A stretch of 11,317 bases of DNA from UHGV virus genome UHGV-0229837. The stretch is one strand, 5' to 3'. Position 1 is the stretch's first letter. Each line of letters opens with the position of its first letter. A program made the translations under genes and the position numbers. The DNA comes from a virus. The notes below the pieces were generated by a model. It saw only the letters and a program-made list of their open reading frames with translations, was not told the DNA's origin and made no database searches. Of this stretch, positions 7,596 through 8,283 are shown in pieces.

Positions 7596-7940
7596 ATGAC
7601 TCAAAACTATGAACTGATTGTGAAAGGGATCCGCAATTTTGAGAATAAAGTTACGGTAACTTTAGCATTACAGGACAAAGAACGCTTTGACGGTGAAATT
7701 TTTGACCTGGACATCTCGCTGGACCGTGTTGAAGGTGCTGCGCTGGAGTTTTATGAGGCAGCGGCCAGAAGGAGCATCAGACAGGTCTTCCTGGATGTCG
7801 CTGCCGGGTTATGTGAAGGGGATGAGCAGTCGCCGGAAAAGCGCCCCGTAATTTTAGAGGCGCAGAATGTATGGATAACCTACAAAGGAAAGCTACCGGG
7901 AAGGATTACTGGTTCCCTGAAGACTCCGCCGAAATGGTAG
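7596..7940 (+). CDS. YdfR-like protein (DUF1327-type from memory) inserted between holin and endolysin
   Basis: ATG 4 nt after the holin stop with GGGGAGAG upstream; the N-terminus MTQNYELIVKGIRNFENKVTV matches my recollection of the K-12 YdfR family; the C-terminal third is not verified. Confidence 0.6.
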   Translation: MTQNYELIVKGIRNFENKVTVTLALQDKERFDGEIFDLDISLDRVEGAALEFYEAAARRSIRQVFLDVAAGLCEGDEQSPEKRPVILEAQNVWITYKGKLPGRITGSLKTPPKW

Positions 7941-8178
7941 TTTTGCCAGCATAATTTTCTTCCAGCAATGCCGCCAGCCACTTGAAAGAATTTTGTTGTT
8001 CCTGGGACCATTTGGGGTTGCGTGATTCAAAATGAATGGATGCCAGCGTTGGCAGCATTTGCTCCCTGGGAATTGATAAGGCCAGATGTGAAAATGCAAC
8101 AGTGAGGGCATTTACATCATCCCGAAGCCTGGAAATGCAGTCGAGCAACTCCTGTAGAGAAATGGTGCTATTGTCCAT
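7906..8178 (-). CDS. Hypothetical 90-aa protein encoded antisense within the lysis cassette
   Basis: ATG at 8178 preceded on the minus strand by AAGAGGA at 6-nt spacing; fills the 344-bp gap between the YdfR-like gene and the endolysin; its 3' end overlaps the YdfR-like gene by 35 nt, convergently. Confidence 0.4.
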   Translation of the reverse strand: MDNSTISLQELLDCISRLRDDVNALTVAFSHLALSIPREQMLPTLASIHFESRNPKWSQEQQNSFKWLAALLEENYAGKTTISAESSGNQ

Positions 8179-8283
8179 AAATAATCCTCTTGATTGTCTT
8201 TACCTTTTCCCCGCCTGATTCAACAGGCCGGGACAGATAAACATATCCAGGGTTCAGAAACCGATAAATCCTGATAAATATCC

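What the first reader, a model, noticed from the sequence alone, without database searches (positions are those of the whole stretch)
7596..8283. Lysis cassette split by an insert: YdfR-like gene plus a convergent antisense ORF with a strong SD between holin and endolysin
In canonical phage 21-type cassettes the holin is followed directly by the endolysin. Here about 690 bp intervenes. It holds a same-strand YdfR-like gene and a 90-codon minus-strand ORF (7906-8178) with AAGAGGA at ideal spacing. An antisense gene inside the lysis cassette could regulate lysis timing, or be a lysogen-expressed moron.
Basis: partly seen in the sequence, partly recalled or inferred. Interest (0 to 1): 0.6.

Follow-up and report, generated by a model that had tools for sequence, protein, structure and literature searches.

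The report
Backwards accessory gene inside prophage lysis cassette
Between the holin and endolysin genes of this E. coli prophage sit the usual ydfR gene and a real but uncharacterised 90-codon gene on the opposite strand, which is one of several swappable "moron" cargo genes found at this spot and is probably unrelated to lysis timing.

Summary
The holin ends at 7591 and the SAR endolysin starts at 8284. The 692 bp between them hold ydfR (7596-7940, +, DUF1327) and a 90-codon minus-strand ORF (7906-8178) with AAGAGGA 6 nt before its ATG.

The arrangement is ordinary. K-12 Qin has essQ-ydfR-rrrQ. The roughly 300-bp insert carrying the antisense ORF is in 1221 of 5426 complete E. coli genomes, annotated "hypothetical protein" (phrog_2411; UniRef name Ybl58).

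The ORF is a real gene:
- dN/dS is 0.17-0.39, with dS about 1 between the deepest pairs.
- 37 of 40 sampled copies are intact.
- Distant 81-97-aa homologues exist in Citrobacter and Serratia.

It fills a variable slot between ydfR and the endolysin. The slot is empty in some prophages and holds at least five other unrelated cargo ORFs in others. Every cargo ORF is antisense to the late operon.

Family members also sit reversed between tail genes, near terminase, beside iha, on plasmids, and as a syntenic chromosomal gene in Serratia. The best reading is therefore a reverse-oriented moron of unknown function, not a lysis-timing factor. Expression and function were not shown. Interest is low to moderate.

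The parts
7309..7337 (+). tR'-like intrinsic terminator upstream of the holin. It marks where late-promoter transcripts should stop in a lysogen.
   Evidence: 12-pair stem followed by TTTATTGTTT. Its position ahead of the holin matches lambdoid late-operon layout (established knowledge).
7376..7591 (+). P21-type class II holin (essQ-like) with an M-D-Q-M dual start
   Evidence: PF04971, E 3.7e-32; the homologous 216-nt CDS in UTI89 is annotated 'class II holin family protein'.
7596..7940 (+). ydfR (DUF1327), 114 aa. Its last residues and stop codon are supplied by the cargo cassette.
   Evidence: PF07041, E 6.9e-44; phrog_406, full length; same position as ydfR in K-12 Qin; homology to cassette-free alleles ends near 7926-7930.
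7835..7863 (-). Terminator-like hairpin on the minus strand (GCGCCTC/GGGGCGC stem, 9-nt loop, then TTTTCC) inside the ydfR coding sequence. It is the candidate terminator of the antisense gene.
   Evidence: RNAfold of the region downstream of the ORF; the hairpin is conserved in the iha-island copy, where the surrounding ydfR sequence has decayed. It did not meet the criteria of the scan (loop of 9 nt, only 4 T).
7906..8178 (-). 90-aa Ybl58-family gene (phrog_2411). It is predicted to be a soluble three-helix protein with a disordered tail.
   Evidence: open frame and purifying selection. AF2 pLDDT 78.7, helices 8-35, 38-52 and 59-79. UniRef name Ybl58; distant homologues.
7930..8228 (.). The roughly 300-bp segment that is present here and absent in otherwise collinear cassettes (approximate junctions)
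   Evidence: alignment A1 against phage vB_EcoM-606R7 and H-19B; slot lengths of 146/165 nt (empty) against 439 nt (this type).
8185..8191 (-). Shine-Dalgarno AAGAGGA, 6 nt before the ATG
   Evidence: direct reading; conserved as ATGAGGA/ATGAGGAG in the diverged ST131 and iha copies.
8210..8232 (.). GC-rich hairpin at the cassette/endolysin-leader boundary. It would lie at the 5' end of the predicted antisense transcript.
   Evidence: Every cargo type has a hairpin at this position. The ST131 copy has a change that completes the stem (A-T in place of G.G).
8240..8268 (-). Candidate weak sigma-70 promoter for the antisense gene: TTTATC (8268-8263), 17 nt, TATGTT (8245-8240). This is a hypothesis only.
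   Evidence: It matches 7 of 12 consensus positions and was not reported by the scan. Both hexamers are unchanged in the iha copy although 5 of the 17 spacer bases differ. TATGTT is kept in all filled slots and reads CAGGTT in 29 empty ones. CCTGGWTATGTT plus a hairpin also precedes family members in two other genomic slots.
8284..8817 (+). SAR-type lysozyme (rrrQ-like) with E-8aa-D-5aa-T and a Gly/Ala-rich N-terminal segment
   Evidence: PF00959, E 2.1e-23; annotated rrrQ lysozyme. Motifs read.
8814..9311 (+). Rz-like spanin (DUF2514), with the embedded Rz1 lipoprotein ORF at 8989-9261
   Evidence: PF10721, E 7.7e-39; the embedded ORF has an LTSC lipobox; rzpQ/rzoQ in K-12.

Best explanation
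The 690-bp interval contains two separate things.

1. ydfR is the normal middle gene of Qin-type lysis modules (holin-ydfR-endolysin).

2. A roughly 300-bp single-gene cargo cassette, a moron, sits at the 3' end of ydfR and points against the late operon. It encodes a real 90-aa soluble helical protein of the uncharacterised Ybl58 family (phrog_2411).

The ydfR/endolysin junction is a recombination hot spot. In different prophages it is empty or carries one of at least six unrelated small cargo genes, always antisense to the late operon.

Inferred mechanism:
- In a lysogen, late-strand transcription stops at the tR'-like terminator (7309-7337), so the minus strand is free.
- The cargo gene is then transcribed from a weak promoter in the conserved leader next to the endolysin start (candidate 8268-8240).
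- The transcript carries a 5' hairpin (8232-8210) and is translated from the strong SD.
- It terminates at the hairpin inside ydfR (7863-7835).
- During lytic growth, Q-modified late transcription runs head-on through the gene and should silence it.

The protein most likely works by binding another protein in the cytoplasm for the benefit of the lysogen. It is probably not part of the lysis clock.

Shown: gene reality, purifying selection, cassette polymorphism, orientation rule, and family distribution. Inferred: promoter, timing of expression, and any function.
For: Real gene:
- dN/dS is 0.285 in its frame, against more than 1.1 in four other frames. The one wobble-sharing frame has stops in the window.
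- Deep pairs give dN/dS 0.17-0.39 with dS about 0.9-1.6, and only one codon of length difference.
- 37 of 40 copies are intact in a sample chosen without reference to the ORF, similar to the neighbouring R and ydfR genes.
- A profile search finds 81-97-aa homologues sharing the motif ELL..I..LR..VN.L..AFSYLAFS...FES.N.

Cassette and slot:
- Alignment A1 shows conserved flanks with empty, Ybl58-type and other fillings.
- In 106 IMG/VR loci the slot is empty in 39, Ybl58-type in 40, phrog_2572-type in about 20 and phrog_18136-type in about 5. Single loci carry phrog_1853-type and a 210-aa ORF. Phage Perceval carries phrog_21218. All cargo ORFs are on the minus strand.
- Every cargo ORF is followed by a hairpin plus T-run on its own strand.

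Independence from lysis:
- Family members sit reversed between tail genes gpM and gpL, reversed upstream of terminase, and reversed upstream of a lambda-S-type holin in Citrobacter.
- An intact copy lies beside iha where ydfR and R have decayed; the full 801-base ORF-to-iha stretch is in 57 genomes.
- Copies are on 73 conjugative plasmids.
- A syntenic chromosomal gene pyrC-dinI-X-bssS-solA is present in at least 6 Serratia species.

Other points:
- There are no TM or signal features: the AF2 model is three helices, and GRAVY is -0.36.
- The cassette is common: 1221 of 5426 complete E. coli genomes.
- A bor homologue in the same reversed orientation lies just after Rz in phage Perceval.
Against: - No transcription or translation data were available.
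- No promoter reaches the consensus-scan threshold on the minus strand here or upstream of homologues.
- GC content of the cassette (0.455) differs only slightly from its neighbours (0.48-0.51), so the compositional hallmark of a moron is weak.
- dN/dS of about 0.3 is relaxed compared with the endolysin (0.07).
- The iha-linked copies are all at least 99% identical, so their intactness may reflect recent transfer and not long retention.
- Function is entirely unknown: no Pfam, NCBIfam, PADLOC, PDB or informative fold match.
Confidence: 0.68

Rival explanations
1. The 90-aa protein is a lysis regulator. It would act as an inhibitor or timer on the pinholin, the SAR endolysin or YdfR, and its place inside the cassette would reflect that job.
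For: It sits between the holin and endolysin genes and overlaps ydfR. In Citrobacter a family member again lies next to a lysis cassette.
Against: - Many otherwise near-identical cassettes lack it or carry unrelated genes in its place.
- It is antisense to the transcript that makes the lysis proteins.
- It has no membrane or periplasmic targeting features, unlike known antiholins.
- Family members occur in tail-gene slots, on plasmids, beside iha without lysis genes, and in the Serratia core chromosome.
Confidence: 0.07
2. What matters is the antisense transcription, not the protein. A conserved outward promoter in the endolysin leader drives an antisense RNA across the ydfR-endolysin junction. 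This RNA damps leaky expression of the SAR endolysin and pinholin in lysogens, and the cargo ORFs are passengers.
For: - The leader (CCTGGATATGTT plus hairpin) and the ydfR-internal terminator lie in the conserved flanks and persist even in empty slots.
- All cargo types share one orientation.
- The leader lies only about 15-45 nt from the endolysin start codon, which has no recognisable SD.
Against: - The promoter is weak by consensus (7 of 12) and unverified.
- 29 empty slots have lost the TATGTT hexamer.
- The cargo ORFs are under purifying selection at the protein level, which passengers would not be.
- The same leader plus ORF occurs between tail genes, where there is no lysis gene to damp.
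Confidence: 0.1
3. The antisense gene is a functional partner of YdfR, forming a two-gene convergent module. For example, it could counteract YdfR, which binds the RNase E catalytic domain.
For: - The 3' ends converge and overlap by 35 nt.
- YdfR binds the RNase E N-terminal domain and co-purifies RNA (PMC13232886).
- In Citrobacter, a late-strand ORF converging on the family member ends with the same KITGSL tail.
Against: - The Citrobacter partner is not DUF1327. The shared tail is simply the antisense of the cargo gene's 3' end.
- Partner ORFs in other contexts are unrelated to YdfR and to each other.
- The same YdfR is found with an empty slot or with unrelated cargo.
- The family persists where ydfR has been destroyed and in Serratia without ydfR.
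Confidence: 0.06
4. The ORF is not a functional gene. It would be a decaying remnant, or the shadow of a plus-strand ORF. In some alleles the wobble-sharing plus frame is open for 94 codons.
For: - dN/dS in the wobble-sharing plus frame is also low (0.24).
- A 94-aa plus-strand ORF exists in one allele group.
- 3 of 40 copies are broken.
- Older annotations call only a 50-aa version.
Against: - The plus frame has two stops in the window.
- Only the minus frame is open in all lineages down to 65% nucleotide identity.
- It has protein-level homologues in other genera with a conserved motif.
- It has a conserved SD.
Confidence: 0.05

Closest known systems
E. coli K-12 Qin cryptic prophage lysis module essQ-ydfR-rrrQ-rzpQ/rzoQ
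   Same: It has the same holin, ydfR, SAR-lysozyme and Rz/Rz1 genes in the same order, with csp genes nearby.
   Different: K-12 has no cargo. ydfR (103 aa) overlaps rrrQ by 4 nt. The window has about 300 bp more, carrying the reversed 90-aa gene, and a YdfR with a different C-terminus (114 aa).
Lambda bor, a lysogen-expressed moron next to the lysis genes
   Same: It is a single small gene, reversed relative to the late operon and adjacent to the lysis cassette. A bor homologue in exactly that orientation follows Rz in phage Perceval. That bor is expressed from the prophage is established knowledge.
   Different: bor encodes an outer-membrane lipoprotein with a known serum-resistance role and lies after Rz. 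The gene here encodes a soluble helical protein of unknown role and lies inside the cassette, between ydfR and the endolysin.
Morons in lambdoid late operons (Hendrix/Juhala concept; for example the HK97 gp15 superinfection-exclusion moron among the tail genes)
   Same: It shows presence/absence between collinear genomes, is a single ORF with a terminator-like hairpin, and is inserted between late genes. Relatives of this very family sit between tail genes gpM and gpL.
   Different: Classical morons are usually co-oriented with the late operon and have a recognisable promoter. Here every cargo is reversed and the promoter is only a weak candidate.
Phage 21 S-R-Rz lysis cassette (pinholin plus SAR endolysin)
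   Same: The holin family (PF04971) and the SAR-lysozyme type are the same. H-19B annotates its S and R genes as similar to phage 21.
   Different: In phage 21 the holin is followed directly by the endolysin (from memory, not checked here). In this lineage ydfR and a variable cargo slot intervene.

Membership tests
YdfR / DUF1327 (PF07041) | Significant match to the Pfam model above the gathering score | tested here: met
   148.4 bits against a cut-off of 25, E 6.9e-44, residues 1-112; phrog_406, full length.
YdfR / DUF1327 (PF07041) | Position between an essQ-type holin and an rrrQ-type lysozyme, as in Qin | tested here: met
   same order in UTI89 and in K-12 Qin.
Ybl58-like small proteins (phrog_2411) | Full-length match to the family profile | tested here: met
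   phrog_2411, E 5.5e-55, 1-90 of 90; exact sequence present in the collection, named Ybl58 by UniRef.
Moron (accessory gene unit in a phage late region) | Present in some and absent from other otherwise collinear genomes, with sharp junctions | tested here: met
   the conserved flanks enclose empty, Ybl58-type or other cargo.
Moron (accessory gene unit in a phage late region) | Own terminator downstream of the gene | tested here: inconclusive
   a hairpin plus TTTT on the cargo strand at 7863-7835, conserved in the iha copy. It falls below the criteria of the scan. Other cargo types have strong terminators (9-bp stem plus T7).
Moron (accessory gene unit in a phage late region) | Own promoter upstream of the gene | tested here: inconclusive
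   no site reaches 9 of 12. The candidate TTTATC-17-TATGTT (7 of 12) is supported only by conservation patterns.
Moron (accessory gene unit in a phage late region) | Base composition different from neighbouring genes | tested here: inconclusive
   cassette GC 0.455 against ydfR 0.48 and R 0.51. GC3 is alike (0.51 against 0.50-0.52).
Moron (accessory gene unit in a phage late region) | Expressed from the repressed prophage | not testable with these tools
   This needs strand-specific RNA-seq or a reporter in a lysogen.
Antiholin / lysis-timing regulators (for example S107, S21-71, T4 RI, P1 LydB) | Membrane-spanning or periplasmic targeting segment that lets the protein meet the holin | tested here: not met
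   three amphipathic helices plus a disordered tail. GRAVY -0.36, pI 4.95. There is no hydrophobic stretch in the sequence.
Antiholin / lysis-timing regulators (for example S107, S21-71, T4 RI, P1 LydB) | Co-transcribed with the lysis genes | tested here: not met
   the gene is on the opposite strand to S, ydfR, R and Rz.
P21-type lysis cassette | Class II holin of the S21 family with a dual start, SAR lysozyme, and Rz with embedded Rz1 | tested here: met
   PF04971, PF00959, PF10721. M-D-Q-M start, E-8aa-D-5aa-T, and an embedded ORF with an LTSC lipobox.
Known anti-phage defence proteins (PADLOC-DB) | Match to any defence-system model | tested here: not met
   no family at E up to 1 for this protein or for two alternative cargo proteins.

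The most novel reading that the evidence does not exclude
The ydfR/endolysin junction may be a dedicated antisense expression platform. It would consist of a conserved leader (ATCAGGAT-N16-CCTGGWTATGTT plus a hairpin) and a terminator built into ydfR. Lambdoid phages would swap lysogeny-expressed cargo genes into it, much as an integron platform serves its cassettes.

The same leader travels with Ybl58-family genes to tail-gene and pre-holin slots in other genera. The cargo, including this 90-aa protein, would be prophage-encoded protection factors such as superinfection exclusion or anti-defence proteins. The antisense transcript would also act as a safety brake on the SAR endolysin.
Probability: 0.12. 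Interest if true: 0.6.

Novelty: new member of a known kind. Interest (0 to 1): 0.3.

Why it matters
About one in five sequenced E. coli strains carries this gene, including UPEC, ST131 and the species type strain, and nothing is known about what it does. Relatives are chromosomal in Serratia and lie next to virulence genes (iha, an autotransporter, a pertussis-like toxin) in other elements.

If the cargo genes of this slot are expressed in lysogens, they form a compact and easily testable set of candidate host-benefit or phage-exclusion factors. The slot itself would be a convenient marker for finding more. As it stands, the finding is an ordinary uncharacterised moron, and it does not change how lysis cassettes are understood.

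Tried and rejected
Function by homology all failed:
- Pfam, NCBIfam and PADLOC gave nothing above noise. The only hit was NF041858 at 12.6 bits against a cut-off of 50.
- A profile search against PDB sequences gave nothing better than E = 1.
- Foldseek against PDB and BFVD gave nothing better than E = 0.4.
- AFDB50 was not available.

Other dead ends:
- The 'DUF1823' label on the alternative 86-aa cargo in phage PhiR12_1 is a sub-threshold hit (15.3 bits against 25) and was discarded.
- Literature: 'ybl58' appears in no paper. 'DUF1327' appears in one comparative-genomics paper. The search on lysis cassette, moron and lambdoid terms found nothing on this slot.
- Promoter scans on the window and on four homologous loci found no convincing site upstream of the gene.
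- A LexA box that seemed to lie upstream of one homologue (L218) is really the palindromic leader hairpin. In Serratia the LexA box belongs to dinI.
- The idea of a conserved convergent partner gene was rejected, because partner ORFs in five contexts are unrelated.
- The plus-strand ORF at 8036-8218 was rejected as the real gene because of stops upstream in the same frame.
- My first holin dN/dS value was an artefact of extending partial hits, and I ignored it.
- The first attempt to scan genome contigs with alignment A5 failed for lack of a conserved block. It was rerun with A6.

Full report
**What is there**

The window is a Qin-like defective lambdoid prophage. In order it carries:
- hok/sok
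- DUF968, RusA and a Q antiterminator
- two tRNAs and the STnc100 sRNA
- a lysis module
- a cspA-type gene
- a tail-fibre assembly gene, with no head genes in between

The lysis module reads as follows:
- a tR'-like terminator at 7309-7337
- a P21-type class II holin at 7376-7591
- ydfR at 7596-7940 (DUF1327, E 6.9e-44)
- a minus-strand ORF at 7906-8178 (90 aa)
- a SAR-type lysozyme at 8284-8817
- Rz at 8814-9311 with an embedded Rz1

AAGAGGA lies at 8185-8191, 6 nt before the minus-strand ATG.

**How common it is**

ydfR between the holin and the lysozyme is the annotated arrangement of K-12 Qin, essQ-ydfR-rrrQ.
- DNA like 7200-8900 matches in 4411 of 5426 complete E. coli genomes, and 985 of them cover at least 80% of it.
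- The insert itself (7941-8240) is in 1221 genomes. It is 100% identical in the species type strain.
- PGAP annotates the minus-strand ORF as 'hypothetical protein', for example WP_001351274.1 in UTI89.
- PHROGs holds it as phrog_2411 (E 5.5e-55).
- UniRef calls it Ybl58. No paper in the library uses that name.

**Is the antisense ORF a gene?**

Among 83 related loci there are 25 distinct DNA versions. None has an indel and one has a stop.

Nei-Gojobori dN/dS, computed outside the overlap with ydfR, is 0.285 in the ORF frame. It is 1.1-1.6 in four other frames. The sixth frame shares wobble positions, so it also scores low (0.24), but it has two stops in the window. For comparison, ydfR gives 0.33 and the lysozyme 0.07.

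Diverged copies from an ST131 strain, an iha island and a plasmid are 65-85% identical in DNA. They give dN/dS 0.17-0.39 (dS 0.45 for the closest pair, about 0.9-1.6 for the others) and differ in length by at most one codon.

I also drew a sample without reference to the ORF, using an exact 29-mer of the endolysin leader in IMG/VR. In that sample 37 of 40 copies are intact, much like the neighbouring R and ydfR genes.

A profile search of 1.84 billion representatives finds 81-97-aa relatives with a shared motif, ELL..I..LR..VN.L..AFSYLAFS...FES.N. I conclude it is a real protein-coding gene.

**The slot**

I aligned the window with phages Chlobot, vB_EcoM-606R7, Perceval, 2H10, PhiR12_1 and H-19B. 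Two flanks are conserved: the ydfR body on the left, and a leader ending in the endolysin ATG on the right. The middle is variable.

The 106 IMG/VR loci with both flanks divide as follows:

| Slot content | Loci |
|---|---|
| Empty | 39 |
| Ybl58-type gene | 40 |
| 86-aa ORF (phrog_2572), with a 93-aa relative in two further loci | about 20 |
| 87-aa ORF (phrog_18136) | about 5 |
| 104-aa ORF (phrog_1853) | 1, plus 1 in a locus lacking the ydfR motif |
| 210-aa ORF | 1 |

Phage Perceval carries a 79-aa ORF (phrog_21218). A few loci have IS insertions.

Every cargo ORF is on the strand opposite the late operon. None has a Pfam or PADLOC match. Each is followed on its own strand by a hairpin with a T-run. 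For the window type, that hairpin lies inside ydfR at 7863-7835, and it survives in a copy whose surrounding ydfR sequence has decayed.

The junction lies inside the 3' end of ydfR. As a result YdfR comes in lengths of 103, 104, 114, 116, 169-183 and 243 aa. This is tolerable if, as reported, its RNase E-binding surface is in residues 1-72 (PMC13232886).

**Where else the family lives**

- An intact copy sits beside a variant of iha, flanked by recognisable remnants of the endolysin leader and of the ydfR hairpin, with both lysis genes gone. The full 801-base ORF-to-iha stretch is in 57 complete genomes.
- Another lies downstream of an autotransporter gene on 73 conjugative plasmids, including pVir68.
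- More distant members sit reversed between tail genes gpM and gpL.
- Another sits reversed upstream of the small terminase subunit.
- In a Citrobacter prophage one sits reversed just before a lambda-S-type holin and a CHAP endolysin, next to a pertussis-like toxin gene and hicB.
- In at least six Serratia species, and in an Enterobacterales MAG, a member is a syntenic chromosomal gene in pyrC-dinI-X-bssS-solA.

Convergent partner ORFs in these places are unrelated to YdfR and to each other. The family is therefore tied neither to lysis nor to ydfR.

**The protein**

AlphaFold2 on an 18-sequence alignment gives three helices (8-35, 38-52, 59-79) and a disordered tail (mean pLDDT 78.7). The protein is mildly acidic (pI 4.95) and hydrophilic, with no signal peptide or membrane segment. 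No structural or profile search gave an informative match.

**Expression (not shown)**

No site on the minus strand passes the sigma-70 scan. A weak candidate, TTTATC-17-TATGTT at 8268-8240, lies in the conserved leader.
- Both hexamers are unchanged in the iha copy while 5 of the 17 spacer bases differ.
- TATGTT is kept in all filled slots and reads CAGGTT in 29 empty ones. Those 29 may be a single lineage.
- CCTGGWTATGTT followed by a GC hairpin also precedes family members in the tail slot and in Citrobacter.

This suggests the leader belongs to the cargo unit. A transcript from it would begin at the hairpin 8232-8210 and end at the ydfR-internal hairpin. All of this is inference.

**Verdict**

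The interval is explained by a known family gene (ydfR) plus a widespread, annotated but uncharacterised reverse-oriented moron of the Ybl58 family, occupying a cargo hot spot.

The 'lysis timing' option is not supported, though it is not formally excluded.

It is a new member of a known kind. The general points I took from it are the strict antisense orientation of all cargo at this junction and the shared leader. Both are worth a small experimental follow-up but are not surprising to a phage biologist.

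Noticed in passing
window 8233-8283; L214 4880-4950; L226 3900-3950: A conserved leader, read on the cargo strand as ATCAGGAT-N16-CCTGGWTATGTT followed by a GC hairpin with a GTGGG-type loop, precedes unrelated cargo ORFs in the E. coli ydfR-endolysin slot. It also precedes Ybl58-family ORFs in a tail gpM-gpL slot and in a Citrobacter prophage. It could be a shared promoter/5' UTR or a recombination boundary.
   Followed up: partly
window 8255-8286: The endolysin start codon has no recognisable Shine-Dalgarno. The invariant sequence CGATAAATCCTGATAAATATCCATG precedes it in all alleles examined, so how R is translated is unclear.
   Followed up: no
L218 4960-5000; L224 415-450; L214 4966-5000: Distant homologues carry a 3-codon mini-ORF ATGGCTGATTAA (M-A-D-stop) with its own SD, 20-35 nt upstream of the main start. 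In L214 the same ATGGCTGATTA is in frame with the main ORF.
   Followed up: no
L090 1300-2100 (E. coli PKF4; the full stretch is in 57 complete genomes): A variant of the adhesin/siderophore receptor gene iha lies directly next to a remnant of this lysis cassette (ydfR hairpin, intact Ybl58 gene, decayed endolysin leader and start). The remnant suggests a prophage lysis region once adjoined this iha allele.
   Followed up: partly
L227-L233 about 3950-4230; L222 5001-5279: In Serratia species the family member is a syntenic chromosomal gene between dinI and bssS. It has its own SD after the dinI terminator. The LexA box there belongs to dinI.
   Followed up: partly
window 6284-6900: An AT-rich stretch (GC 0.29-0.35) holds a 111-aa minus-strand ORF (6284-6619) with no Pfam match, between STnc100 and the DUF1737 gene. 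It may be another reversed moron.
   Followed up: no
window 1656-1826, 6069-6258, 9528-9912, 11079-11277: Rfam hits above gathering score: sok antitoxin RNA, STnc100 sRNA, the cspA thermoregulator with a csp gene (9673-9885), and IS009 inside the tail-fibre assembly gene.
   Followed up: no
window 9900-10736: The prophage runs from the lysis/csp region to a tail-fibre assembly gene (10736-11317) without terminase, head or tail genes. The element is therefore a Qin-like cryptic remnant.
   Followed up: no
L134 1500-1703; L006 1378-1887; L004 1501-2052: The C-terminal coiled-coil extension of 'long' YdfR proteins (169-183 aa) also exists as a stand-alone 67-aa ORF, with no DUF1327 domain, converging on the 86-aa cargo gene. 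That cargo type is therefore a two-ORF module.
   Followed up: partly
L121 about 12426, L131 about 12852, L167 about 80 (upstream of the holin): The tR'-type terminators of some relatives (GCCGYCAGTGGGTGACACTGGCGGC followed by a T-run) resemble the hairpin at the cargo-slot boundary.
   Followed up: no
L226 5945-6847 and 5339-5770: The Citrobacter meridianamericanus prophage that carries a family member also encodes a pertussis-toxin-S1-like ADP-ribosyltransferase and a HicB antitoxin just upstream of its lysis genes.
   Followed up: no
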